Sequence record: NC_001954.1 | Reading direction: 5' to 3' (one strand) | DNA from: Escherichia phage If1 | Length of the DNA: 8,454 nt | In this document: one piece after another, positions 1 to 8,454 of the stretch | How positions within the stretch are numbered: the stretch's first letter is position 1 | How the letters are laid out: every line of letters starts with the position of its first letter | Translations under genes and position numbers: made by a program | The notes under the pieces: generated by a model | Database searches by the model: none | What the model saw: the letters and a program-made list of their open reading frames with translations, nothing else | Told to the model about the DNA's origin: nothing

Positions 1-291
1 ATGAGTGAGTTAGGAAATCTGGAAACCACTGTTACCGGAAAAATCAAACGATTTAATAACGGCGGCGGCTATTATTACACTACAGTGGTTTCTCCTGCCG
101 CTGACGCATATAGTTTCCCTCCAGTTATACGCATTAAGTCCAAGAAATCACTTGGCCGTGTGGGGGATGAGATAGCAGATATTCACTGCCGAATTACAGG
201 TTATGAACGTAGCTTTCCATATACAGATAAACAAACAGGTGAGCAATCCCGTGGTTTTAACGTAGACATGCTTCTTGAACTTCTGGAATAA
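1..291 (+). CDS. V: Gene V product, ssDNA-binding protein (by position and size; weak sequence resemblance)
   Basis: 96-aa ORF directly upstream of the VII/IX/VIII block. Its stop TAA (289-291) is followed by ACATG of gene VII, matching the Ff TAACATG junction. SD-like AAGGTG (8444-8449) lies at the window 3' end, 4-5 nt before the ATG at 1 when the sequence is circularised. The frame is closed upstream by TGA at 8434-8436. Confidence 0.6.
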   Translation: MSELGNLETTVTGKIKRFNNGGGYYYTTVVSPAADAYSFPPVIRIKSKKSLGRVGDEIADIHCRITGYERSFPYTDKQTGEQSRGFNVDMLLELLE

Positions 292-293
292 AC

Positions 294-392
294 ATGTCTG
301 CAACAGACTTCGATTCTCTGTATCAATTAATATTTAATGCCGGGCTTGTTATTTGTTTTGGCCTTGGCGTTATTAGTGGTGGTCAAAGATGA
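294..392 (+). CDS. VII: Gene VII minor coat protein (virion tip)
   Basis: 32 aa, MSATDFDSLYQLIFNAGLVICFGLGVISGGQR. Close to M13 pVII as I recall it (MEQVADFDTIYQAMIQISVVLCFALGIIAGGQR). Not in the ORF track because it is short. Its stop overlaps the gene IX start (ATGA at 389-392). Confidence 0.85.
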   Translation: MSATDFDSLYQLIFNAGLVICFGLGVISGGQR

Positions 393-487
393 GTGCACTA
401 TCTTACTTCTTTGCTGCTTATTGTATTGGATGGGTTATATCCCATTCTATTCTGGTGTTTAAAAAACTATCTGAGGTTTCAACATGA
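389..487 (+). CDS. IX: Gene IX minor coat protein (virion tip)
   Basis: 32 aa, MSALSYFFAAYCIGWVISHSILVFKKLSEVST. Hydrophobic, same length and position as M13 pIX. ATGA overlap with gene VIII start (484-487). Confidence 0.8.
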   Translation: MSALSYFFAAYCIGWVISHSILVFKKLSEVST

Positions 488-708
488 AAAAATCAGTCGT
501 TGCAAAAATCATTGCTGGCTCAACTCTGGTTATTGGTTCATCTGCCTTTGCAGCAGATGATGCAACCAGTCAGGCTAAAGCTGCTTTTGATTCTTTAACC
601 GCTCAGGCAACCGAAATGTCCGGGTACGCATGGGCGCTTGTTGTTCTTGTTGTTGGTGCTACGGTGGGAATTAAGCTCTTTAAGAAATTTGTAAGCCGCG
701 CATCCTAA
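484..708 (+). CDS. VIII: Gene VIII major coat protein (procoat with signal peptide)
   Basis: 74 aa with signal peptide, acidic N-terminal segment (AADDATSQAKAAFDSL), hydrophobic core (YAWALVVLVVGATVGI) and basic C-terminus (KLFKKFVSRAS). Near-collinear with M13 pVIII as recalled. Confidence 0.95.
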   Translation: MKKSVVAKIIAGSTLVIGSSAFAADDATSQAKAAFDSLTAQATEMSGYAWALVVLVVGATVGIKLFKKFVSRAS

Positions 709-739
709 TTCAACATTATTTCGCTTCAACCATTCATTT

Positions 740-763
740 GGGTGGCGTCTGCCACCCCTTATT
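740..763 (+). terminator. Rho-independent terminator-like hairpin after gene VIII
   Basis: GGGTGGC(740-746)-GTCT-GCCACCC(751-757), a perfect 7-bp GC-rich stem, followed by CTTATT. Same position as the strong terminator after gene VIII in Ff phages. Confidence 0.55.
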
Positions 764-775
764 AAGGTAGCATAA

Positions 776-2158
776 ATGAAGAAAATAATTATTGCTTTAT
801 TTTTTGCTCCTTTCTTTACCCATGCAACTACAGACGCTGAATGTTTAAGTAAACCCGCATTTGATGGCACATTAAGTAATGTCTGGAAAGAAGGAGACTC
901 ACGTTATGCAAATTTTGAAAACTGCATTTACGAACTTTCGGGTATTGGTATCGGTTATGATAATGATACTTCGTGTAATGGGCACTGGACGCCTGTTCGT
1001 GCTGCTGATGGCTCTGGCAATGGTGGTGATGATAATTCATCTGGCGGGGGTAGTAATGGAGACTCAGGAAACAATTCTACGCCAGATACAGTAACACCCG
1101 GGCAGACTGTGAATTTACCGTCTGACTTATCTACTCTGAGCATTCCTGCTAATGTGGTTAAATCTGACTCAATAGGTTCTCAGTTTTCGCTTTATACAAA
1201 TGCCAGTTGCACAATGTGTTCAGGGTATTATCTGTCTAACAATGCTGATTCAATTGCCATTGCTAACATTACGGAAACGGTAAAGGCTGATTATAACCAG
1301 CCTGATATGTGGTTTGAGCAAACCGACAGTGACGGCAATCATGTTAAAATACTACAGAACAGTTATAAGGCTGTTTCTTATAATGTGGAATCAAAACAAT
1401 CTGACGTGAATAACCCGACATACATTAACTATTCTTATTCCGTTAATGTAAAACAAGTTTCCTATGACACATCAAATGTCTGCATAATGAACTGGGAAAC
1501 TTTTCAGAATAAGTGTGATGCCTCACGTGCTGTTTTGATAACTGATACGGTTACGCCATCTTATTCCAGAAATATAACGATACAGTCGAATATTAATTAT
1601 CAGGGTAGCAACGGGTCAGGCGGGTCAGGCGGGTCAGGCGGGTCAGGCAATGATGGTGGCGGAACCGGGAATAATGGCAACGGAACAGGTGATTTTGATT
1701 ACGTCAAAATGGCAAACGCCAATAAAGATGCACTGACTGAATCATTTGACTTGTCAGCTTTGCAGGCCGATACCGGGGCATCTCTTGATGGTTCTGTACA
1801 GGGAACACTGGATTCTTTAAGCGGGTTTTCCGACAGCATAGGTGGACTTGTTGGCAACGGCTCTGCAATTTCTGGTGAGTTTGCAGGTTCATCAGCTGCT
1901 ATGAATGCAATTGGTGAGGGTGACAAATCGCCTCTGCTGGACTCGCTCTCATTTCTGAAAGACGGATTATTTCCTGCCTTACCTGAATTTAAACAATGTA
2001 CACCATTTGTATTTGCTCCCGGCAAAGAGTACGAATTTATTATTGAGTGCAAATACATTGATATGTTTAAAGGGATTTTTGCTTTCATATTATATTTCTG
2101 GACATTCGTTACTGTTTACGATTCTTTTTCTGGAATATTACGTAAGGGAAGGGGATAA
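776..2158 (+). CDS. III: Gene III minor coat / adsorption protein
   Basis: 460 aa with N-terminal signal peptide. N1-like segment (AECLSKP...[16 protein letters not shown]) resembles the M13 g3p N1 domain. Two Gly/Ser-rich linkers. C-terminal domain ([18 protein letters not shown]...[44 protein letters not shown]) is collinear with the M13 g3p C-terminal anchor. Confidence 0.95.
1613..1648 (+). repeat. Perfect 4x tandem 9-bp repeat (GGGTCAGGC) encoding the (GSG)n linker within gene III
   Basis: Units at 1613-1621, 1622-1630, 1631-1639 and 1640-1648, read directly from the sequence. Confidence 0.9.
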
Positions 2159-2160
2159 CC

Positions 2161-2502
2161 ATGCCAGTTTTTCTGGGGCTTCCTGTTCTGGCAAGATTTA
2201 TTGGATGGCTTGCAGGTGCTCTTATTGCATACGTTGCAAAATTTTTCACATTGGGAATCGCCAGAATAGCACTTGCAATTTCGCTATTTCTTGGCCTTAT
2301 TATCGGTCTGAATGGATTGTTAGTTTCTTATCTTTCAGACCTTACTTCTGTATTGCCACCTGAAATTGCCAGCGCAGTCTCTTATGTTGTTCCGGCTAAT
2401 GCTGCGCCGTGTTTGTATGCGATTTTTTCTCTTAAAGCAGCAGTTTTTATTTTTGACGTTAAAGACAGAATTATAGGATATCTTGACTGGAATAAATCAT
2501 AA
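2161..2502 (+). CDS. VI: Gene VI minor coat protein
   Basis: 113 aa hydrophobic protein (MPVFLGLPVLARF...AISLFLGLIIGLN...YLDWNKS), collinear with M13 pVI. Stop TAA (2500-2502) shares one base with the gene I ATG (2502-2504). Confidence 0.9.
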   Translation: MPVFLGLPVLARFIGWLAGALIAYVAKFFTLGIARIALAISLFLGLIIGLNGLLVSYLSDLTSVLPPEIASAVSYVVPANAAPCLYAIFSLKAAVFIFDVKDRIIGYLDWNKS

Positions 2503-3563
2503 TGGCTGTATATGTCGTAACGGGAAAACTTGGTGCAGGTAAAACACTTGTCGCTGTCGGTAAAATCCAGGACAAAATTGTTTCTGGTTGCAGGGTGGCT
2601 ACGAATCTCGATTTGCGCATTCATAAGCTACCGAGAGTGGGTATATTTGCAAAGTCACCGGATGTAATACGGATACCTGATAAACCATCACTGGATGACT
2701 TACTGGCAATCGGGAGAGGCAATAATTCCTATGATGAAAATAAAAATGGATTACTGGTTCTTGATGAATGTGGGACATGGTTTAACTCACGCTCATGGGC
2801 TGATAAAGAAAGACAGTCCGTAATTAACTGGTTTTTACATGCCAGAAAACTGGGCTGGGATATTATTTTTCTTATTCAGGATTTATCCATCATGGATAAG
2901 CAAGCTCGTGTGGCACTGGCAGAGCATGTCGTTTATTGCCGACGCCTCGATAAAATCACAATTCCATTTATTGGCTCAATTTATAGTGTAATAACGGGAT
3001 CAAAACTTCCGCTACCAAAAGTACATGTCGGGATTGTTAAATATGGTGACTCTCCGCAGTCAATGACCGTAGAACGCTGGACTTATACGGGGCGTGACCT
3101 TTATGCCGCTTATGATACCAAACAGGCATTTTCAGATGCTTATGAGCATTCATCATTTTCATACCTGACACCATATCTTTCACATGGCAGGTATGCCGTA
3201 AAGAGGGACGCTACGTTTTATATGAGACTCACCAGAATCTATTTAAAGAAATATTCCAGAGTATTGTGCCTGTTTTGTGGTTTTGTATCAGCATTCACGT
3301 ACCTCAGTCTGTCCAAGCCGGAAGCGACACCTCAGATAAAACCAGTAACGACGCAGATTATCACATCCCGTTATAAACCATCAGAGTTGAGAATAACAAC
3401 ATCATATCGAATGGGAAATGCAGTTGGTTTTGAGTTTATGGATGCGAAGAAGCAAAAAATTGCATCTGACGATCTAATTAAAGACGGTTTTCGCATGGTC
3501 TATATAACACCTTGTTCGGTAGAGCTTATTAAGGATGGGAAACATGAAAAAGTTACTTGCTAG
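2502..3563 (+). CDS. I: Gene I assembly protein (Zot-like NTPase)
   Basis: 353 aa. Walker A GKLGAGKT near the N-terminus. Extensive collinearity with M13 pI (e.g. NGLLVLDECGTWFN, HARKLGWDIIFL, LTPYLSHGRY). Internal transmembrane segment (RVLCLFCGFVSAFTYLSL). Confidence 0.95.
   Translation: MAVYVVTGKLGAGKTLVAVGKIQDKIVSGCRVATNLDLRIHKLPRVGIFAKSPDVIRIPDKPSLDDLLAIGRGNNSYDENKNGLLVLDECGTWFNSRSWADKERQSVINWFLHARKLGWDIIFLIQDLSIMDKQARVALAEHVVYCRRLDKITIPFIGSIYSVITGSKLPLPKVHVGIVKYGDSPQSMTVERWTYTGRDLYAAYDTKQAFSDAYEHSSFSYLTPYLSHGRYAVKRDATFYMRLTRIYLKKYSRVLCLFCGFVSAFTYLSLSKPEATPQIKPVTTQIITSRYKPSELRITTSYRMGNAVGFEFMDAKKQKIASDDLIKDGFRMVYITPCSVELIKDGKHEKVTC
3222..3563 (+). CDS. XI: Gene XI product (in-frame internal start within gene I)
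   Basis: In-frame ATG at 3222 is codon 241 of gene I, the same relative position as the M13 pXI start (M13 ...KMKLTKIYLKK vs here ...YMRLTRIYLKK). Translation start not verifiable from sequence. Confidence 0.45.
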   Translation: MRLTRIYLKKYSRVLCLFCGFVSAFTYLSLSKPEATPQIKPVTTQIITSRYKPSELRITTSYRMGNAVGFEFMDAKKQKIASDDLIKDGFRMVYITPCSVELIKDGKHEKVTC

Positions 3564-4833
3564 TTTGCTTTGTGTATTGTCATTTCAGAGCTTTGCTATC
3601 CCTGTTGAACTGAATAATGCGCCAGTAAGGGAGTTTGTTTCATGGTATTCAAAAACAACCGGAAAGCCTGTGATTATTTCACCAGACGTAAAAGGGGAAA
3701 TTACGGTTTACTCAGCGGATGTCACCAAAGATGAACTGCCTCAGTTTTTTACTTCGGTTCTCCGGGCGAACGGTTTTGACCTCAGTCCGGGTAATCCTGC
3801 TGTGGTTCAAAAATTTAACCGTAATACGTATGAATATTCCGATTCTTTCTCAGAGCCGGTTCCGGCATCTTCTTATGATGGTGATGTTCCTCCTCCAACT
3901 GGAGACTTTTTCACTAAACCTGAGATACGTGCCAATTTGATTACTCAGACGTATCCGGTCAATAACGTCAGAGCAAAGGATCTCGCACCTGTTATTGATA
4001 TATTCCTGAAGGGGGAAAATATTGCTGGTACTAAAGTTTATCCTTTGATGGGGCGAATATTCTTGCTTGTAACGGCATCAGCATCACAACACAAAGAACT
4101 TGCAGCATTTTTTCCTTCTGTTGATGTGCCAAGAACTCAGGTTCTTGTTGAATCAGTCATTTTTGAAACAACGGCTTCCGATGGTTTTGATTTTTCATTT
4201 GCTGCGGGGGATCCTTCCGGCAGTCCGGTTGCGGGAGGGATCAATACTGACCGTCTCACGTCTGTTTTATCCAGCACTGGCGGTTCCTTTGGTATTTTTA
4301 ACGGGAACATTCTGGGGCTTAGCCTGAAAGCGCTTGAAACATCGAGTAAATCAACGCTTTTATCAATGCCACGCATTCTGACGATGTCAGGTCAACCAGG
4401 AACATTTACAGCAGGGCAAAATGTTCCTTTTGTGACGGGGCGGGTTACGGGAGAAGCTGCAAATGTTAACAATCCATTCCAGACGATCGAACGTCATGAT
4501 GTGGGGATCTCACTGAAGGTTGTTCCGGTCGTGACACCCGGAGGATTGTTAATCATGGATGTTTCGACAAATGCGGATAGTATTTCTGATTCGCAAACGG
4601 CTTCTGACATCATCACAAATACACGCTCAATTTCGACAACCGTTCAGCTAAAATCAGGCCAGACAGTTCTGCTTGGCGGGATGGTAGATAACAGGGAAAG
4701 CGACAGTGATTCATCTGTACCGTGGGTATCAAAAATTCCCTTAATTGGTGCGCTTTTCACGTCCAAAAGCTCAAATGCCAACAAGCGCACGCTGTACATT
4801 CTCATTCGCGCCCGCGTCGTTAACCTGCTTTAA
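3544..4833 (+). CDS. IV: Gene IV secretin (virion export channel)
   Basis: 429 aa from ATG 3544 (MKKLLASLLCVLSFQSFA signal peptide), with AAGGA at 3530-3534 upstream. The ORF track opens at 3535 (432 aa). Strong collinearity with M13 pIV, including the secretin C-domain (VPFVTGRVTGEAANVNNPFQTIERHDVGISLKV...SKIPLIGALF). Confidence 0.95.
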   Translation: MKKLLASLLCVLSFQSFAIPVELNNAPVREFVSWYSKTTGKPVIISPDVKGEITVYSADVTKDELPQFFTSVLRANGFDLSPGNPAVVQKFNRNTYEYSDSFSEPVPASSYDGDVPPPTGDFFTKPEIRANLITQTYPVNNVRAKDLAPVIDIFLKGENIAGTKVYPLMGRIFLLVTASASQHKELAAFFPSVDVPRTQVLVESVIFETTASDGFDFSFAAGDPSGSPVAGGINTDRLTSVLSSTGGSFGIFNGNILGLSLKALETSSKSTLLSMPRILTMSGQPGTFTAGQNVPFVTGRVTGEAANVNNPFQTIERHDVGISLKVVPVVTPGGLLIMDVSTNADSISDSQTASDIITNTRSISTTVQLKSGQTVLLGGMVDNRESDSDSSVPWVSKIPLIGALFTSKSSNANKRTLYILIRARVVNLL

Positions 4834-4929
4834 TCCCGTAGCACCGGCGTTCTCCCTGCGCAGCGGGGGGAACGTTGGTGAGAAGGGCGCTCAGACAGGA
4901 AAATCCCTCCCGATTATCAGGTGGAACAA

Positions 4930-4947
4930 ATCCTGTTTTCACAGGAT
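4930..4947 (+). other. Stem-loop in the gene IV-proximal intergenic region (candidate packaging-signal or minus-strand-origin structure)
   Basis: ATCCTGT(4930-4936)-TTTC-ACAGGAT(4941-4947), a perfect 7-bp stem with a tetraloop and no following T-tract. Confidence 0.35.
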
Positions 4948-5060
4948 ATACAGTAAGACTCACATCATCATAAATACAAAGCGAGACGGGTATCGTAAGA
5001 GTTGCCATGTAGCATTTCCTTTGTGCTGTTGAATTTGTGGGTGCATTTGCACGCGAAGCG

Positions 5061-5085
5061 GTTCGGGGTTCTGTGACACCCGAAC
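5061..5085 (+). other. Stem-loop (7-bp stem, 11-nt loop) in the intergenic region
   Basis: GTTCGGG(5061-5067)...CCCGAAC(5079-5085), read directly from the sequence. Confidence 0.35.
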
Positions 5086-5088
5086 TTT

Positions 5089-5112
5089 ACCGTGGTTTCC
5101 CACGGTATTTTT
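5089..5112 (+). terminator. Plus-strand rho-independent terminator candidate
   Basis: ACCGTGG(5089-5095)-TTTC-CCACGGT(5100-5106) followed by A then T5 (5108-5112). On the minus strand the hairpin is not followed by a T-run, so it is directional (+). It lies immediately before the 3' end of the minus-strand ORF at 5119. Confidence 0.55.
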
Positions 5113-5118
5113 CTAATC

Positions 5119-5310
5119 TTACTCGCTGGACTTGGTTGTGTGAATCAGATCCTTTTCTGTATCTTTTGCATAATTATCAATCAGATGATTAACGATATCA
5201 GTCCAAGTGATCGCACGTCCAGCGGTATGACTGGCATCGATCGCCAGCCGTTCGAGTTTTAGCTTTCGTTCAGCCACGATAGCCATAGTTGTTCGTTTTG
5301 GAGTTGCCAT
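5119..5310 (-). CDS. Small ribbon-helix-helix-like DNA-binding protein (putative regulator; function unknown)
   Basis: 63 aa from ATG (reverse complement of 5308-5310): MATPKRTTMAIVAERKLKLERLAIDASHTAGRAITWTDIVNHLIDNYAKDTEKDLIHTTKSSE. Short N-terminal beta-strand-like segment (RTTMAIV) followed by two predicted helices, as in the CopG/Arc/MetJ pattern. GGAAG lies 5 nt upstream of the ATG. The ORF track starts at an upstream TTG (5322). The only clearly antisense gene relative to the phage operons. Confidence 0.45.
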   Translation of the reverse strand: MATPKRTTMAIVAERKLKLERLAIDASHTAGRAITWTDIVNHLIDNYAKDTEKDLIHTTKSSE

Positions 5311-5329
5311 CTTAACTTCCAAAGGGTAC

Positions 5330-5379
5330 TCCCGCCGACATAAGGCGGGAGGGGAATTTGGACGGGCTTGAAAAGCCCG
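5330..5379 (+). repeat. Left-end subterminal hairpins of the IS (candidate TnpA recognition structures)
   Basis: Hairpin 1: TCCCGCC(5330-5336)-GACATAA-GGCGGGA(5344-5350). Hairpin 2: CGGGCTT(5363-5369)-GAA-AAGCCCG(5373-5379). They lie just downstream of the tnpA stop (5388-5390 on the minus strand) and are separated by a G-rich motif GGGAGGGGAA. Confidence 0.5.
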
Positions 5380-5387
5380 AAGGGTGA

Positions 5388-5768
5388 TCAGCCACGCTGA
5401 TGTTGAATGTATTGCCTAACAACTTCCAGCGGCGCACCTCCGCAGGAGCCAGCAAAGTATGACCTAGACCAGAGCACGGCTTTTCCGTATGCCCCCCGCA
5501 AATCAAGAAATTCGTTTCGCAGACGGCGGGATGTCACTGCTTTCAGTGAGTTAACCAGTACCGAAAGCTGCACTGTTGGTGGGTATTCGATCAGCATGTG
5601 GACATCATCGTACGTCTCCGTTACTTTCTTTAAGTTCCTCGCCCCAAAATCACGGCAGCACTTCTGCCTGCATACTGATGAAATGGCTGCACAGTGTAAC
5701 TCTCCCAGTATCTTTCGACGGTATTTTGTTACAAAGACGAAGATGAACATGCAAAAGGAAGGCAGCAT
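5388..5768 (-). CDS. tnpA: IS200/IS605-family Y1 (HuH) transposase TnpA
   Basis: 126 aa from ATG (reverse complement of 5766-5768); the track ORF opens at TTG 5831. Core motifs present: ...FVTKYRRK..., ...DDVHMLIEYPP... (HuH-region) and ...LWSRSYFAGSCGGAPLEVVRQYIQHQ (catalytic Tyr region). The first His of the HuH motif reads as Asp (D-V-H). Confidence 0.85.
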   Translation of the reverse strand: MLPSFCMFIFVFVTKYRRKILGELHCAAISSVCRQKCCRDFGARNLKKVTETYDDVHMLIEYPPTVQLSVLVNSLKAVTSRRLRNEFLDLRGAYGKAVLWSRSYFAGSCGGAPLEVVRQYIQHQRG

Positions 5769-5852
5769 GTCTTGAACGATTGATTTTATATTTTTGCATT
5801 GAGGTTGGCCGTAAAAGCAGTAATATTGCAAGAAAATCTAGCTACACACTGA

Positions 5853-6143
5853 ATGATGATGCTAATCCTGAAAGCCTACAAATTCAGACTGGAACCAACG
5901 CCTGAACAGTCGCAGCGTTTGCGGCAGTTATGCGGTTGCGCCCGTTTTGTCTGGAATTTAGGTCTTGCGGAGACAAAGCGCATACTTGACTCAGGCGAAA
6001 AGTTACCTTCGGCTTTCGAGTTGAACCGGAGTGATTACAGTGTGGAAAAAAATGCCGGAATACATCTTCTTACAGGATGCCTATACCGACAATCTGCAAC
6101 AAAAGCTGAAAGACCTGCATACCGCATGGAAACGTTGTTTTGA
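5853..6143 (+). CDS. tnpB: tnpB N-terminal fragment (frame 0), out of frame with the main tnpB body
   Basis: Starts ATGATGATG. MMMLILKAYKFRLEPTPEQSQRLRQLCGCARFVWNLGLAE matches the canonical TnpB/OrfB N-terminal signature (KAYKFRLxPTxEQ...GCARFVWN). Only about the first 60 aa look genuine; the rest of the frame runs to a stop at 6141-6143. Confidence 0.7.
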   Translation: MMMLILKAYKFRLEPTPEQSQRLRQLCGCARFVWNLGLAETKRILDSGEKLPSAFELNRSDYSVEKNAGIHLLTGCLYRQSATKAERPAYRMETLF

Positions 6144-7086
6144 TAAAAAGCTCGCAGCTAAGGCTCCGGTATGGAAACGAAAAAATGAGGGCAGAGACTC
6201 AATCCGTTTTGTGAACTTTGAGAAATATTGCTGCCTTGAAAATCGCAGAGTGAAGCTACCGTCAGGTCTTGGGTGGGTAAAATTCCGGCAATCTCAACGT
6301 GTGAACGGTAAAATCAAAAATGCGACAATCAGTCAGTTAGCGGGACAGTGGTATATCTCGTTTCAGGTTGAAATTGAAACGGCAGAACCAAATCACACAA
6401 GCACAACGATAGTCGGTCTGGATGCTGGCGTGGCTAAACTCGCCACGCTGTCAGATGGCACAGTCTTTGAACCTGTAAACAGTTTTCAGAAAAACCAGAA
6501 GAAGCTGGCGAGACTTCAGCGACAGTTAAGCCGCAAGGTCAAATTCAGCAACAACTGGCAGAAGCAGAAACGCAAAATACAGTGTCTGCATTCCCGTATC
6601 GCAAATATCCGCAGAGACTACCTTCATAAAGTCACAACGACCGTCAGCAAAAACCACGCAATGATAGTCATTGAGGATTTGAAGGTCAGCAACATGTCAA
6701 AGTCAGCAGCGGGTACGGTCAGCCAGCCGGGGCGCAATGTCCGGGCAAAATCAGGTTTAAACCGTTCGATACTGGATCAGGGCTGGTATGAAATGCGCCG
6801 CCAGCTTGAGTACAAACAGCTCTGGCGTGGAGGTCAGGTGCTTGCTGTTCCGCCAGCGTACACAAGCCAGCGTTGCGCGTGCTGTGGTCATACAGCGAAA
6901 GAAAACCGCCTGTCACAAAGTCAATTCAGATGCCAGGTATGTGGATATACAGCGAACGCCGATGTAAATGGCGCTCGTAACATTTTAGCGGCGGGGCACG
7001 CCGTACTTGCCTGTGGAGGGACGATGCAGTCAGACCGCCCGTTGAAGCAGGAACCAGACGCTGAGCAATCAGCCGTCACCCACTAA
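6031..7086 (+). CDS. tnpB: tnpB main body: RuvC-like, zinc-finger RNA-guided endonuclease (IS605 OrfB / OMEGA TnpB)
   Basis: 351 aa in frame +1 relative to the N-terminal fragment. RuvC-I (IVGLDAGV), RuvC-II (MIVIEDLKV), zinc finger (CACCGH...CQVCGY) and RuvC-III ([10 protein letters not shown]) all present. Frame opens just after TGA at 6022-6024, with first start-like codon GTG at 6031. Combined with the N-terminal fragment the protein would be about 410 aa. Confidence 0.85.
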
Positions 7087-7091
7087 TGGGA

Positions 7092-7132
7092 ATCCCCCTC
7101 CTGAGTCACGAAGTGCGAAGGTGGGGGAGGAT
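7092..7132 (+). repeat. Right-end imperfect palindrome / G-rich motif of the IS (candidate RE structure and omega-RNA scaffold 3' region)
   Basis: ATCCCCCTCC (7092-7101) ... GGTGGGGGAGGAT (7120-7132), 6-13 nt after the tnpB stop. It can form an imperfect stem with bulges. It resembles the left-end motif GGCGGGAGGGGAA at 5344-5356. Confidence 0.4.
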
Positions 7133-7140
7133 GTCAATCC

Positions 7141-7315
7141 ACACCTCAGTAGTTTTCTGCTGGCATAAAGCTAAACACTTATGCTCTCCAGTCGTATTCT
7201 GCCGTCATTATAGTTAAACACTTATGCGCTCATATCATTATGCTTGTATACATGCGTAATGCGTGATAGATTTTTGTCATTTCGTAACTGCATACATGTA
7301 TAGGGTGAGTGTTCA
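7141..7315 (+). promoter_or_regulatory. Gene II-proximal intergenic region: candidate plus-strand origin, gene II promoter and operator
   Basis: AT-rich. 13-bp direct repeat TAAACACTTATGC at 7172-7184 and 7215-7227. Palindromes TGTATACA (7245-7252) and ATACATGTAT (7292-7301). Possible -35 TTGTCA (7274-7279). SD-like GGGTGAG before the ATG at 7316. Same position as the plus-strand origin and gene II promoter in Ff phages. Confidence 0.45.
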
Positions 7316-7537
7316 ATGTTTTTTGACTGGCTGACTATTGAACAGGATTTTGGCTTTCAGCTACCGATTTTGAGTGATGTTGCCTATCAGCGCATCCACC
7401 TCGAAAGCGGGGAAGCGTCAGCTCTGAGTCAGCCAACTTTTCAGCACAAAGGATCTTTTTGTGATGGTTGTTTCGATCTCTATCCGAGGCTCATTGCTGA
7501 AAGTCTCTGGAAATCCTTCCCGGTGGGGGCGTCTTGA
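7316..7537 (+). CDS. II: Gene II replication initiator, N-terminal segment (frame 2), ahead of an apparent frameshift
   Basis: MFFDWLTIEQDFGFQLPILSDVAYQRIHLESGEASALSQPTFQHKGSF... Start and N-terminal pattern resemble M13 pII (MIDMLVLRLPF...). The genuine part probably ends at F48 (7457-7459); the track ORF continues out of frame to 7537. Confidence 0.7.
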   Translation: MFFDWLTIEQDFGFQLPILSDVAYQRIHLESGEASALSQPTFQHKGSFCDGCFDLYPRLIAESLWKSFPVGAS

Positions 7538-8432
7538 TAATTTATTTGGCCTTCCAACTTTGGATTCCTGTGTATCGGTTTTCAATACGATCCTTGCTGA
7601 AATAGGTTTACCTCAGTTTACGAAATGTAAGAGGCTTATGCCCGGCCAGGCAAAAGAGAATGAGAAAGCACCTCTTGTTGCTGACGGTGCAATTATTAAA
7701 GAAGTACATATCACCTCGAACAGGGCGGCAGGTAAGGGGAATGAAGATGACTATATTTCAGGTTTATCTACGCAACCCTACAGGAACAGCGTTCCACGGC
7801 TACACTCCAATGGAAAATCCGTTGACTGGCTGTCTAAAAAAGGCAATGTAAACCTCATATATCCAACGGTTTACAATAAAGCTCATGAAATGGAACTCCA
7901 TTCTTTGACAAAGATAAAGAATCGTTTTTCCGAACAATCTCGGGAATACAATTACCTACTCGATATTATATCTTTCTGCAAAGAGAATGGGGTCGTAAGG
8001 TTTGAGCAAAAGCTGAAATCCAGATTTTTGCAAAAGAATGCGCTCAATTACTGGGGGCTTTCTGATTATTCCATTTTAAATAAGTTACATTCTGATTTTC
8101 TTGAACTTGATAAAAAGTTATCGGTGAATGCTATGGACTTTGAAACTATCAGTGATCATCTTGTAAGTAGTGGGGTTGTTGAAACCACCCGTGCAGCAAA
8201 TACTACCGCAATGTATGCAATACAGTGGTTTCACGGTCATGTATTTGACTTCAACAAAAAACAGGTTCAGACACATCGGGCGCGGTTACGAAAAATTGGT
8301 ATCGACATTGCGCAGAAATGCAATGTTTCTAAATTCTCTCCTGTGATTGTGAAACAAACACGGGAAATTAAGGTGCAGGAGTGCGTTGCACCATCATGGT
8401 ATGTACGTCCGTCACATTTACGCGTTGCATAG
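7461..8432 (+). CDS. II: Gene II replication initiator (rolling-circle nickase), main body (frame 0)
   Basis: 323 aa. SISIRGSLLKVSGNPSRWG aligns with M13 pII CVEIKASPAKVLQGHNVFG, and RFEQKLKSRFLQKNAL with M13 RFEARIKTRYLKSF. Stop TAG at 8430-8432. Frame opens after TGA at 7425-7427. Confidence 0.9.
   Translation: MMVVSISIRGSLLKVSGNPSRWGRLDNLFGLPTLDSCVSVFNTILAEIGLPQFTKCKRLMPGQAKENEKAPLVADGAIIKEVHITSNRAAGKGNEDDYISGLSTQPYRNSVPRLHSNGKSVDWLSKKGNVNLIYPTVYNKAHEMELHSLTKIKNRFSEQSREYNYLLDIISFCKENGVVRFEQKLKSRFLQKNALNYWGLSDYSILNKLHSDFLELDKKLSVNAMDFETISDHLVSSGVVETTRAANTTAMYAIQWFHGHVFDFNKKQVQTHRARLRKIGIDIAQKCNVSKFSPVIVKQTREIKVQECVAPSWYVRPSHLRVA
8133..8432 (+). CDS. X: Gene X product (in-frame internal start within gene II)
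   Basis: In-frame ATG at 8133 (MDFETISDHL...) preceded by GGTGA at 8123-8127. 99 aa. Same relative position and size as M13 pX (111 aa). Confidence 0.5.
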   Translation: MDFETISDHLVSSGVVETTRAANTTAMYAIQWFHGHVFDFNKKQVQTHRARLRKIGIDIAQKCNVSKFSPVIVKQTREIKVQECVAPSWYVRPSHLRVA

Positions 8433-8454
8433 TTGATTAATAAAAGGTGTTTAT

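What the first reader, a model, noticed from the sequence alone, without database searches (positions are those of the whole stretch)
4834..5118. Gene IV-proximal half of the split intergenic region with several hairpins and a directional terminator
Stem-loops at 4930-4947 and 5061-5085, and a terminator-like hairpin with T5 at 5089-5112, occupy the position where Ff phages carry the packaging signal and minus-strand origin hairpins. The IS and RHH ORF separate this half from the origin half (7141-7315), so packaging signal and minus-strand origin are roughly 2.2 kb from the plus-strand origin, whereas in Ff phages they are contiguous.
Basis: partly seen in the sequence, partly recalled or inferred. 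Interest (0 to 1): 0.35.

Follow-up and report, generated by a model that had tools for sequence, protein, structure and literature searches.

The report
Unsplit phage origin and packaging hairpin

Summary
The strongest hairpin in the segment (4835-4887, directly after the gene IV stop) was overlooked. It is stable only on the + strand, and in seven gene IV relatives its apex is conserved while its lower stem covaries. That makes it the packaging-signal candidate.

The pair 5061-5085 and 5088-5107+T5, preceded by a GAA mini-hairpin (5052-5060), looks like a plus-strand origin core of the Ff/IKe type. It has a 7-bp stem and an 11-nt loop, GTTCTGTGACA, against f1 GTTCTTTAATA (8 of 11 identical), followed by a second inverted repeat. 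The cluster lies 300-900 nt upstream of homologues of this phage's gpII-family Rep in about 70 phage contigs. In IKe the annotated viral-strand origin has the same position relative to a small ribbon-helix-helix (RHH) gene.

A near-identical relative without the insertion sequence places the IS at 5311-7137, between the RHH start codon and its ribosome-binding site. 7138-7315 is a promoter/operator region, not an origin. Hairpin 4930-4947 lies in the remnant of a leftward cargo gene. No Ff-like minus-strand origin was found.

This is an ordinary, contiguous intergenic layout that had not been annotated.

The parts
3535..4833 (+). Gene IV (secretin), whose stop codon 4831-4833 marks the start of the intergenic region.
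   Evidence: ORF. Pfam Secretin, Secretin_N and GspD N0 domains. About 68% nucleotide identity to IKe and I2-2 gene IV.
4835..4887 (+). It has an 18-bp stem 4842-4859/4863-4880, a GCA loop and 4 further outer pairs, with several G.T wobbles.
   Evidence: The + strand folds at -16.9 kcal/mol (z -3.1) and the - strand at -10.6 (z -0.6). Seven gene IV relatives keep the apex CTC(C/A)CTGC-GCA-GCGGGG while the lower stem covaries: 89% of cells paired against 74% in shuffles, and 12 of 22 pairs changed on both sides. Its position and roughly 57-nt size match the annotated IKe and I2-2 morphogenetic signals (preprint 10.1101/2023.12.30.573655).
4888..4929 (.). Spacer belonging to the gene IV/packaging module. 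It ends in GGTGGAACAAATC, and a module junction lies at 4929/4930.
   Evidence: It is shared with L087 and L088 up to about 4929, and those contigs repeat the motif three times. Homology with the IS-less relative L008 begins at 4930.
4930..5008 (-). The 5' remnant (26 codons, ATG at 5008-5006) of a leftward cargo gene.
   Evidence: L008 has the full 133-aa ORF, with full-length homologues at 68-87% identity in Enterobacter and Pantoea. The hairpin keeps only 5 of 7 pairs in the homologous genes of L130 and L131.
5052..5060 (+). Mini-hairpin CGC-GAA-GCG. Relatives have CCGC-GAA-GCGG, so the window is one C short.
   Evidence: Fold. Present in 22 of 62 distinct family members. The stem covaries in distant members as CCCC-GGA-GGGG, ACCC-GGA-GGGT and ACCC-GAA-GGGT. 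GCGNAGC-type mini-hairpins are exceptionally stable and occur at ssDNA priming sites (PMC13037366).
5061..5085 (+). Probable plus-strand origin nick hairpin GTTCGGG-GTTCTGTGACA-CCCGAAC. The predicted nick is GTTCTGT^GACA, between 5074 and 5075.
   Evidence: It has the same 7-bp stem and 11-nt loop as f1 AGTCCAC-GTTCTTTAATA-GTGGACT, with 8 of 11 loop bases identical. The f1 pII cut is TTCTTT^AATA (10.1101/015511). The exact motif is in 79 IMG/VR stretches, mostly 300-900 nt upstream of a Rep homologue. The stem covaries and the loop core CTGTNACA is kept in Pseudomonas and bird-cloaca phages, with a weaker stem in a Vibrio phage.
5088..5112 (+). Second inverted repeat TACCGTGG-TTTC-CCACGGTA plus T5. 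It is an auxiliary origin element in the hairpin E position and a + strand intrinsic terminator.
   Evidence: Across 33 family members 81% of cells pair against 59% in shuffles, and 6 of 7 pairs change on both sides. A T-rich tail follows in 32 of 62 distinct members. It sits 2 nt after hairpin 1, as f1 and IKe hairpin E sits 1 nt after hairpin D.
5119..5310 (-). Small RHH-like regulator gene (63 aa), native to this intergenic layout.
   Evidence: PHROG 2503, E 5e-27, and the unannotated IKe ORF 6601-6798 hits the same family. I2-2 has a frameshifted homologue. Homologues lie between the motif and Rep in about half of the loci. There is a weak ParG (RHH) match, E 0.28.
5311..7137 (+). IS200/IS605-family insertion sequence (tnpA 5388-5831 on the minus strand, tnpB 5853-7086 on the plus strand and frameshifted), inserted between the RHH ATG and its ribosome-binding site.
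   Evidence: Boundaries come from the IS-less relative L008. Pfam Y1_Tnp, OrfB_IS605 and Cas12f1-like_TNB. IS copies occur in other records.
7138..7315 (.). Divergent promoter/operator region between the RHH gene and gene II.
   Evidence: It is contiguous with the RHH ATG in L008. It contains a 43-bp tandem duplication 7147-7231 and palindromes. There is no excess structure (z +0.16) and no GTTC..GAAC nick-type hairpin.
7316..8432 (+). Gene II (Rep, gpII family), broken by one extra G at 7466/7467.
   Evidence: Pfam G2P_X_C and Phage_CRI. The 371-aa ORF is intact in L008. PHROG 702 replication protein.

Best explanation
Window 4834-5118 is an ordinary, contiguous filamentous-phage intergenic control region built from two modules joined at 4929/4930.

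(1) Immediately after gene IV, the + strand folds into a roughly 22-bp imperfect hairpin (4835-4887). By analogy with the Ff and IKe morphogenetic signal, it would stay free of gene V protein and mark the DNA end where assembly starts. This step is inferred.

(2) 5052-5112 is the plus-strand origin core: a GAA mini-hairpin, a nick hairpin (5061-5085) and a second inverted repeat (5088-5107). The phage's gpII-family Rep, encoded at 7316-8432, would cut the + strand of the supercoiled replicative form in the loop. The predicted cut is GTTCTGT^GACA, between 5074 and 5075. The 3'-OH primes rolling-circle synthesis, and Rep cuts and reseals at the regenerated site after one round. This step is inferred from homology of architecture and from gene linkage.

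(3) The second inverted repeat plus T5 also stops rightward transcripts before they run antisense into the RHH regulator gene (5119-5310, minus strand).

(4) 4930-5008 is the dead 5' end of a leftward cargo gene, and its small hairpin is probably incidental.

(5) The IS (5311-7137) is inserted between the RHH start codon and its ribosome-binding site. It displaces the promoter/operator region and gene II, and does not split the origins.

(6) The minus-strand origin is not identifiable.
For: Packaging hairpin: strand-specific stability. A conserved apex and a covarying stem in 8 genomes. Every gene IV relative, including IKe and I2-2 with their annotated morphogenetic signals, has a + strand-biased long hairpin at the gene IV stop.

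Rep family: the Rep belongs to Pfam Phage_CRI + G2P_X_C, the family of IKe and I2-2 gpII.

Origin architecture: f1 has AGTCCAC-GTTCTTTAATA-GTGGACT, then 1 nt, then an 8-bp inverted repeat. The window has GTTCGGG-GTTCTGTGACA-CCCGAAC, then 2 nt, then an 8-bp inverted repeat. The loops share 8 of 11 bases. The pII cut site TTCTTT^AATA is taken from 10.1101/015511.

Linkage to Rep: the exact motif occurs in 79 IMG/VR stretches. In about 70 of 81 loci a Rep homologue (33-100% identity) lies 300-900 nt downstream on the same strand. Six of six Rep-family phages chosen without reference to the motif carry it or a variant upstream of Rep. In three of them the stem is changed in a compensating way (GTGGGGG/CCCCCAC) and the loop core CTGTNACA is kept.

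Hairpin 2 covaries.

Position: IKe's annotated viral-strand origin hairpins (6554-6580, 6582-6599) are followed at once by a minus-strand ORF of the same PHROG as the window's RHH, and then by gene II.

IS boundaries and native arrangement: from L008, which is over 99% identical and lacks the IS.

7138-7315 has repeats and palindromes but no excess structure and no nick-type hairpin.
Against: Nothing was tested biochemically, so the nick position is an extrapolation from f1.

The invariance of hairpin 1 among the 79 stretches follows partly from the search pattern used to find them.

A few loci carry the motif next to other Rep types (Phage_GPA in L002, RstA/Rep_trans in L037, I2-2-type in L065 and L070) or with no Rep at all (L019, L046, and plasmid copies). 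I read these as recombinant or orphan copies. They also fit a function that does not depend on Rep.

Reps that are 90-96% identical can have different hairpin-2 stems, so sequence-specific Rep binding to that stem is doubtful.

The packaging hairpin has no sequence similarity to the IKe or I2-2 signals. It also lacks the CGGGT..GGTG motif on the ascending limb that is reported for Ff.

The A/T-rich enhancer that follows the Ff core origin has no room here, because the RHH ORF ends 7 nt after the T-run.
Confidence: 0.75

Rival explanations
1. The hairpins at 4930-4947, 5061-5085 and 5089-5112 are the packaging signal and minus-strand origin, the plus-strand origin lies in 7141-7315, and the IS plus the RHH ORF have split the intergenic region.
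For: The hairpins lie in the gene IV-proximal non-coding DNA. The IS is real. The GAA mini-hairpin is a type known from minus-strand priming sites of G4-like phages (PMC13037366).
Against: Hairpins 5061-5107 are equally stable on both strands (-17.5 kcal/mol each), so they lack the strand bias that a signal read only in the packaged single strand would tend to show (compare the packaging hairpins).

The loop resembles the Ff nick site.

The motif follows the Rep gene across hosts and across unrelated structural modules. The If1-type packaging hairpin occurs in phages that lack the motif.

7139-7315 has no structure above chance.

An RHH ORF sits between the plus-strand origin and gene II in IKe too.

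4930-4947 is inside a gene remnant.
Confidence: 0.05
2. The cluster 5052-5112 consists only of transcription terminators, or RNA-stability hairpins, between the rightward gene IV operon and the leftward RHH/cargo transcription unit, and has no replication role.
For: Hairpin 2 plus T5 is a consensus intrinsic terminator on the + strand. About half of family members have a T-rich tail after hairpin 2. In about half of members an A-run precedes hairpin 1, which gives a T-run on the minus strand. The hairpin-2 stem drifts freely among near-identical Reps, as expected for an element that needs only its structure.
Against: Terminators do not keep a 25-nt sequence, loop included, unchanged from Vibrio and Alteromonas phages to enterobacterial and oral-metagenome ones. 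Nor do they keep a loop core (CTGTNACA) while the stem covaries. Many members have no T-run. The similarity to the f1 nick hairpin is unexplained by this model.
Confidence: 0.08
3. A compact bifunctional origin. The same roughly 60-nt cluster carries both the Rep nick site and the minus-strand priming signal, with the SSB-resistant GNA mini-hairpin (5052-5060) recruiting primase or RNA polymerase on the packaged strand.
For: No Ff-like minus origin exists elsewhere in the intergenic region. The GNA-triloop mini-hairpin is kept, with a covarying stem, directly 5' of the nick hairpin in distant members. Only the + strand carries the GAA/GGA triloop that PMC13037366 describes as exceptionally stable, because the minus strand reads TTC/TCC there (read from the sequences). 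PMC13037366 also reports such mini-hairpins at primase sites of G4, St-1 and alpha3 and in RSF1010 ssiA.
Against: About half of family members replace the mini-hairpin with an A-run. There is no direct evidence for priming. The window itself has a weakened 3-bp version.
Confidence: 0.12

Closest known systems
Ff (f1/M13/fd) and IKe plus-strand origin core (hairpins D and E, cut by gpII)
   Same: The Rep belongs to the same Pfam families. The nick hairpin has a 7-bp stem and an 11-nt loop, and 8 of 11 loop bases match f1. A second inverted repeat follows 1-2 nt downstream. The core lies between the packaging signal and gene II. In IKe it is likewise followed by a minus-strand RHH-family ORF.
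   Different: The stem sequence is unrelated, and the loop reads GTTCTGTGACA. A GNA mini-hairpin precedes it. There is no room for the A/T-rich enhancer (domain B/region II). The Rep N-terminal domain matches Phage_CRI only weakly (23.5 bits against a 21.7 cut-off). No nucleotide similarity to the IKe or I2-2 intergenic regions is detectable.
Ff/IKe/I2-2 packaging (morphogenetic) signal
   Same: A long imperfect hairpin at or just after the gene IV stop, about 55 nt and about 22 bp, more stable on the + strand, and conserved by covariation among relatives.
   Different: It has a different apex class, CTC(C/A)CTGC-GCA-GCGGGG, against GGGTAGGTGCG..AGCCCTGCCC in the IKe class. It lacks the CGGGT..GGTG motif on the ascending limb. 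It starts 2 nt after the stop codon instead of overlapping the gene end.
CTXphi ig-1 ori(+) (RstA nick in a hairpin loop next to the 3' end of rstR)
   Same: The general layout is the same: a plus-strand origin hairpin cluster abutting the 3' end of a leftward repressor gene that is divergent from the Rep gene, with the nick in a hairpin loop (PMC4439123, PMC8265649).
   Different: It is not homologous. The CTXphi ig-1 examined (L122, a record whose rstR is annotated as the environmental type) lacks the GTTCGGG hairpin, and the El Tor records matched only the sequences flanking it. RstA is Pfam Rep_trans and shows no similarity to this Rep. The Vibrio copy first taken for ig-1 (L002) belongs to a neighbouring element.
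Primase-dependent minus-strand origins of G4, St-1 and alpha3, and RSF1010 ssiA
   Same: A GCGNAGC/GNA-type mini-hairpin within a cluster of hairpins on the packaged strand (PMC13037366).
   Different: There is no sequence homology, no evidence of priming, and the mini-hairpin is missing in half of the family.

Membership tests
Ff-type plus-strand origin (gpII/Phage_CRI rolling-circle origin) | A Rep of the gpII family is encoded by the same genome. | tested here: met
   G2P_X_C 88 bits. Phage_CRI 23.2-23.5 bits against a cut-off of 21.7. PHROG 702 replication protein.
Ff-type plus-strand origin (gpII/Phage_CRI rolling-circle origin) | A hairpin carrying the nick sequence in its loop (f1 G-TTCTTT^AATA). 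| tested here: inconclusive
   The stem and loop sizes are the same and 8 of 11 loop bases are identical. The loop core is conserved and the stem covaries in the family. The cut itself was not observed.
Ff-type plus-strand origin (gpII/Phage_CRI rolling-circle origin) | A second inverted repeat directly 3' of the nick hairpin (hairpin E, the gpII binding region). | tested here: met
   5088-5107 lies 2 nt after hairpin 1 and covaries. Rep binding was not tested, and the stem sequence is not coupled to Rep identity.
Ff-type plus-strand origin (gpII/Phage_CRI rolling-circle origin) | An A/T-rich enhancer (region II/domain B) 3' of the core. | tested here: not met
   The RHH ORF stop codon (5119-5121) lies 7 nt after the T-run. 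IKe has the same arrangement.
Ff-type plus-strand origin (gpII/Phage_CRI rolling-circle origin) | Rep-dependent nicking, and initiation and termination of + strand synthesis. | not testable with these tools
   This needs nick mapping or a two-origin plasmid assay.
Filamentous-phage packaging (morphogenetic) signal | A long imperfect hairpin at the end of gene IV on the packaged strand. | tested here: met
   4835-4887, -16.9 kcal/mol, z -3.1. It has the same position and size as the annotated IKe and I2-2 signals.
Filamentous-phage packaging (morphogenetic) signal | Strand (orientation) specificity. | tested here: met
   + strand -16.9 against - strand -10.6 kcal/mol. The G.T wobbles are invariant. 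All relatives show the same bias. Functional orientation dependence was not tested.
Filamentous-phage packaging (morphogenetic) signal | Conservation of the structure among relatives. | tested here: met
   12 of 22 pairs have double changes, and 89% of cells pair against 74% in shuffles and 44-68% with slid partners.
Filamentous-phage packaging (morphogenetic) signal | [quoted passage not shown] | tested here: not met
   The ascending limb is CACCGGCGTTCTCCCTGC. GGTG occurs only on the descending limb.
Filamentous-phage packaging (morphogenetic) signal | It confers encapsidation on ssDNA in cis. | not testable with these tools
   This needs a transducing-particle assay.
Ff/IKe minus-strand origin (hairpins B and C, RNA polymerase primed) | Two adjacent long hairpins between the packaging signal and the plus-strand origin. 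| tested here: not met
   4905-5050 folds no better than shuffles (z +0.17 on the + strand). Only the 7-bp hairpin 4930-4947 is found there.
Ff/IKe minus-strand origin (hairpins B and C, RNA polymerase primed) | Sequence similarity to the block conserved between IKe and I2-2, and also present in f1. | tested here: not met
   Word-7 blastn of 4800-5330 against the IKe and I2-2 intergenic regions gave only chance 9-13-mers. f1 was not included in that comparison.
CTXphi ig-1 ori(+) | Homology to ig-1, and an RstA (Rep_trans) initiator. | tested here: not met
   The CTXphi ig-1 examined (L122) lacks the hairpin. RstA against this Rep gives E = 1.5. The Pfam families differ.
IS200/IS605 insertion sequence (context element 5311-7137) | A Y1 transposase plus TnpB, subterminal hairpins, no target duplication, and insertion 3' of a short target. 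| tested here: met
   Pfam Y1_Tnp, OrfB_IS605 and TNB. Hairpins at 5318-5362 and 5363-5379. The junction with L008 is clean, with no duplication.

The most novel reading that the evidence does not exclude
The 60-nt cluster of three hairpins (GNA mini-hairpin, nick hairpin, second inverted repeat) may be a self-contained, bifunctional origin cassette. It would be nicked by Rep on the duplex form. On the packaged strand it would be primed for minus-strand synthesis through the SSB-resistant mini-hairpin. The cassette reassorts between phage modules exactly at the motif. It also persists as orphan copies in hundreds of conjugative plasmids and in E. coli chromosomes, where a superinfecting phage's Rep could still act on it.
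Probability: 0.12. Interest if true: 0.6.

Novelty: new member of a known kind. Interest (0 to 1): 0.3.

Why it matters
The work corrects the functional map of this phage. From memory of its 8454-nt size, and from its IMG/VR number sitting between those of I2-2 and IKe, I believe the phage is If1. Its cis signals are contiguous, as in Ff and IKe, so the IS insertion is a regulatory lesion: the RHH gene is cut off from its ribosome-binding site and promoter, and gene II is displaced. It is not an origin-splitting event.

The work also defines two reusable annotations.

- A second apex class of gene IV-linked packaging hairpin.
- A short, highly conserved origin motif, GTTCGGG-N3-5-CTGTNACA-CCCGAAC plus a covarying hairpin. 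It marks the replication module of a widespread group of gpII-family inoviruses and prophages, found in enteric bacteria, Vibrio and Alteromonas and in oral and gut metagenomes, with stem variants in Pseudomonas phages. It also flags orphan remnants in plasmids.

None of this overturns current understanding.

Tried and rejected
(1) CTXphi homology. I first read the Vibrio match (L002) as CTXphi ig-1 and mapped the published RstA nick onto this loop. The CTXphi ig-1 I examined (L122) lacks the hairpin, the El Tor records matched only its flanks, RstA is an unrelated Rep_trans protein, and L002 carries a Phage_GPA Rep. I withdrew the claim and keep CTXphi only as an analogy.

No similarity was found. 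Only position and structure can be compared.

(3) Rfam and tRNA scans of the window. Nothing was found in the segment, and the only hit was a weak RAGATH-18 match inside the IS.

(4) Search for a minus-strand origin. There are no Ff-like hairpins, the middle stretch has z near 0, and the one promoter-like match on the minus strand (4942-4913) is within chance expectation.

(5) Hairpin 4930-4947 as an origin element. It lies in a gene remnant and is not maintained in the homologous genes.

(6) Hairpin 2 as a sequence-specific Rep operator. Reps that are 90-96% identical carry different stems. G.T and A.C counts show no strand bias (22 against 18).

(7) A dif or XerCD site in the segment. None was seen, although the relative L090 carries an exact E. 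coli dif elsewhere.

(8) A literature search for the motif sequence found nothing relevant, and no paper on the If1 intergenic region turned up.
Full report
**What the window is**

The ORFs give the standard filamentous-phage gene order: V, VII, IX, VIII, III, VI, I and IV (1-4833). A non-coding stretch follows. After it come a small minus-strand ORF, an IS200/IS605 element, a second non-coding stretch and a replication gene (7316-8432).

Genes I and IV are about 68% identical in nucleotide sequence to those of IKe and I2-2. The window is the whole of IMG/VR contig 638275991_000001. The contigs numbered one lower and one higher are the I2-2-sized (6744) and IKe-sized (6883) genomes. From memory of its 8454-nt length I take the window to be phage If1. 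That identification is my inference, not a tool result.

**Checking the observation**

Hairpin 5088-5107 followed by T5 is the only terminator-like site in 4600-5500, and it is on the + strand only. As single-stranded DNA the segment folds better than shuffles (z = -3.2).

It spans 4835-4887 and has an unbroken 18-bp stem.

**The hairpin after gene IV**

On the + strand it folds at -16.9 kcal/mol (z -3.1). On the complementary strand it folds at only -10.6 (z -0.6), because several pairs are G.T wobbles.

I fetched relatives of gene IV and read the DNA after their stop codons. Seven relatives, with 64-97% protein identity, have a hairpin in the same place. They share the apex CTC(C/A)CTGC-GCA-GCGGGG, and their lower stems differ but stay complementary. 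Examples are GGATAGCTGCCATC/GATGGCAGCTATCC in L092 and GCTTAACGCTTT/AAAGCGTTAAGC in L093.

On an ungapped alignment, 89% of cells pair, against 74% in shuffles and 44-68% when partners are slid. Twelve of 22 pairs change on both sides.

More distant gene IV relatives include IKe and I2-2, whose records annotate a 'morphogenetic signal' at this spot. All of them also have a long hairpin at the gene IV stop that is 3-10 kcal/mol more stable on the + strand. Their apex belongs to a different class.

So the segment does contain a conserved long hairpin equivalent in position, size and strand bias to the packaging signal. It shows no sequence similarity to the IKe or I2-2 signal. It also lacks the CGGGT..GGTG motif on the ascending limb that is reported for Ff (10.1101/2023.12.30.573655).

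**The hairpin pair at 5061-5112**

A search of phage records found the 50 nt 5061-5110 at 96% identity in Alteromonas phage phiAFP1. Hairpin 1 also turned up in a Vibrio record and in a lemur-saliva inovirus. In each case it lies just 3' of a small minus-strand regulator gene. In two of the three that gene is divergent from a replication gene of the window's type. The Vibrio record carries a different Rep type, described below.

The pattern GTTCGGG-N3-5-CTGTNACACCCGAAC occurs in 79 IMG/VR stretches. In all of them a second hairpin follows after 3 nt. Its stem covaries: 81% of cells pair against 59% in shuffles, and 6 of 7 pairs have double changes.

In about 70 of 81 loci a homologue of the window's Rep (33-100% identity) starts 300-900 nt downstream on the same strand. 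An RHH homologue often lies between them on the opposite strand. The window is the outlier at 2232 nt.

As a reverse test I took six Rep-family phages that had been found by protein similarity alone. All six carry the motif or a variant upstream of Rep.

- In two Pseudomonas phages and a bird-cloaca phage the stem becomes GTGGGGG/CCCCCAC and the loop core CTGT(T/A)ACA is kept.
- A Vibrio cyclitrophicus phage keeps the loop, but its stem pairs less well.
- One saliva inovirus has a near-variant (CTATTACA), and another has the exact motif.
- Directly 5' of the hairpin, a GNA-triloop mini-hairpin covaries: CCCC-GGA-GGGG, ACCC-GGA-GGGT and ACCC-GAA-GGGT, against CCGC-GAA-GCGG in the enteric group.

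**Why I read this cluster as the plus-strand origin**

- The Rep belongs to the same Pfam families (Phage_CRI, G2P_X_C) as gpII of IKe and I2-2.
- The f1 origin reads AGTCCAC-GTTCTTTAATA-GTGGACT, then 1 nt, then an 8-bp inverted repeat.
- The window reads GTTCGGG-GTTCTGTGACA-CCCGAAC, then 2 nt, then an 8-bp inverted repeat.
- Stem and loop lengths are the same, and 8 of 11 loop bases are identical.
- pII cuts f1 at TTCTTT^AATA (10.1101/015511). That predicts GTTCTGT^GACA, between 5074 and 5075.
- In the IKe record the annotated viral-strand origin hairpins (6554-6580, 6582-6599) are followed at once by an unannotated minus-strand ORF (6601-6798). That ORF belongs to the same PHROG (2503) as the window's RHH protein. 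Gene II comes next. I2-2 has a frameshifted copy of the ORF.

The order origin, RHH gene, promoter region, gene II is therefore native to this phage group.

**A correction made on the way**

I first took the Vibrio match for CTXphi ig-1, where the RstA nick has been mapped to a hairpin loop (PMC4439123, PMC8265649). The CTXphi ig-1 I then read (L122, a record whose rstR is annotated as the environmental type) lacks this hairpin, and the El Tor records matched only its flanks. RstA is a Rep_trans protein unrelated to this Rep. The Vibrio locus carries a Phage_GPA Rep. CTXphi is therefore only an analogy.

That locus is one of a few exceptions to the linkage with Rep. The others are L037 with RstA, L065 and L070 with an I2-2-type Rep, and L019 and L046 with no Rep at all. 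I read them as recombinant or orphan copies.

**The IS and the 'origin half'**

Contig L008 is over 99% identical to window 4930-5310 and 7132-8454 and has no IS. This fixes the IS at 5311-7137. It is inserted between the RHH ATG (5310) and its ribosome-binding site, and there is no target duplication.

In L008 the stretch corresponding to 7138-7315 directly abuts the RHH start codon. That stretch contains a 43-bp tandem duplication and palindromes. It has no excess structure (z +0.16) and no nick-type hairpin. It is a divergent promoter/operator region. The claim that the IS separates the packaging signal and minus origin from the plus origin is therefore not supported.

**The middle of the segment**

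Homology with the gene IV-module relatives L087 and L088 ends at about 4929, and homology with L008 begins at 4930. The intergenic region is thus a junction of two modules.

In L008 a minus-strand gene of 133 aa starts at the position equivalent to 5008. It has full-length homologues at 68-87% identity in Enterobacter and Pantoea. The window keeps only its first 26 codons (4930-5008).

It keeps only 5 of 7 pairs in the homologous genes. The stretch 4905-5050 folds no better than shuffles. No Ff- or IKe-like minus-strand origin is present, either by sequence (compared with IKe and I2-2) or by structure, so its location remains open.

**Open points**

Hairpin 2 is a good + strand terminator in the window, and half of the family has a T-rich tail after it. 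Reps that are 90-96% identical can carry different hairpin-2 stems, so only its apex (GG-TTTC-CC in the enteric group) could be read specifically.

The GAA mini-hairpin is of the type reported at primase sites of G4-like phages and in RSF1010 ssiA (PMC13037366). That allows the more novel reading that this cluster also primes the minus strand.

**Verdict**

The hairpins are real. The segment is a normal, contiguous packaging-plus-origin region of the Ff/IKe kind, with a new apex class and a new origin sequence. The 'split intergenic region' interpretation fails.

Noticed in passing
window 5311-7137: The IS200/IS605 element is inserted exactly between the RHH start codon (5310) and its ribosome-binding site, as shown by the IS-less relative L008. 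The tnpB-sense strand of the IS coincides with the packaged + strand. From memory, that is this family's transposition ('top') strand, which would fit its ssDNA-dependent transposition. tnpB is split into two ORFs (5853-6143 and 6031-7086). A weak RAGATH-18 match lies at 7010-7053.
   Followed up: partly
window 7466-7467 and 5050-5052: Compared with L008 and all other relatives, the window has one extra G in gene II, which breaks the 371-aa Rep into two ORFs. It also has one C fewer in the mini-hairpin (CACGCGAAGCG against CACCGCGAAGCG). Either could be a sequencing error or a real lesion.
   Followed up: partly
L083 (IKe) 6601-6798 minus strand; L084 (I2-2) 2720-2918 minus strand: IKe has an unannotated 65-aa minus-strand ORF between its viral-strand origin and gene II. 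It belongs to the same PHROG (2503) as the window's RHH protein. I2-2 has a homologous ORF interrupted by a frameshift.
   Followed up: partly
window 5045-5112; L118, L119, L120, L121: A query spanning the segment (4700-5320) matched 678 of 5426 complete E. coli genomes, and every listed hit fell on the roughly 60-nt origin core. The core alone matched 439 plasmid records, mostly conjugative. One chromosomal copy examined (L119, next to hipBA) lies in a filamentous prophage that has a Rep. Three plasmid copies examined are decayed orphans without a Rep, and two of them are truncated inside hairpin 2 at the same junction. In L121 that junction is next to an ISNCY transposase.
   Followed up: partly
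left of the origin motif in L131, L121, L120 and L008: The slot immediately left of the origin holds diverse leftward 'cargo' genes. Some are annotated as defence-related: AbiJ-like in L131 and a Shedu nuclease in L121. L120 has an STM4504/CBY_0614-family protein there. The window keeps only a 26-codon stump of one such gene.
   Followed up: no
window 7147-7231: A 43-bp tandem duplication (two copies, 80-87% alike) and the palindromes TGTATACATG/CATGTATA lie in the RHH-gene II intergenic region. They are probably operator and promoter elements.
   Followed up: no
window 4916-4929; L087 and L088 downstream of gene IV: The motif GGNGGAACAAATC(G/A)CCG is repeated three times after the packaging hairpin in L087 and L088. 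The window has a single copy that ends exactly at the 4929/4930 module junction.
   Followed up: no
L089-L093, 100-350 nt after gene IV: Relatives with the If1-type packaging hairpin share conserved hairpins with a GTCA tetraloop (ATGCC-GTCA-GGCAT in all five, TATGGC-GTCA-GCCATA in three). Three of them also have a second GCGAAGC. L090 contains an exact E. coli dif site. These blocks are absent from the window and could be the minus origin or attachment region of those phages.
   Followed up: no
window 4849-4873 and 5061-5085: The packaging hairpin contains a 25-mer GTTC...GAAC with the same length and the same four terminal bases at each end as the nick hairpin. There are 2 matches in the window against 0.13 expected. 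This is probably coincidence.
   Followed up: no
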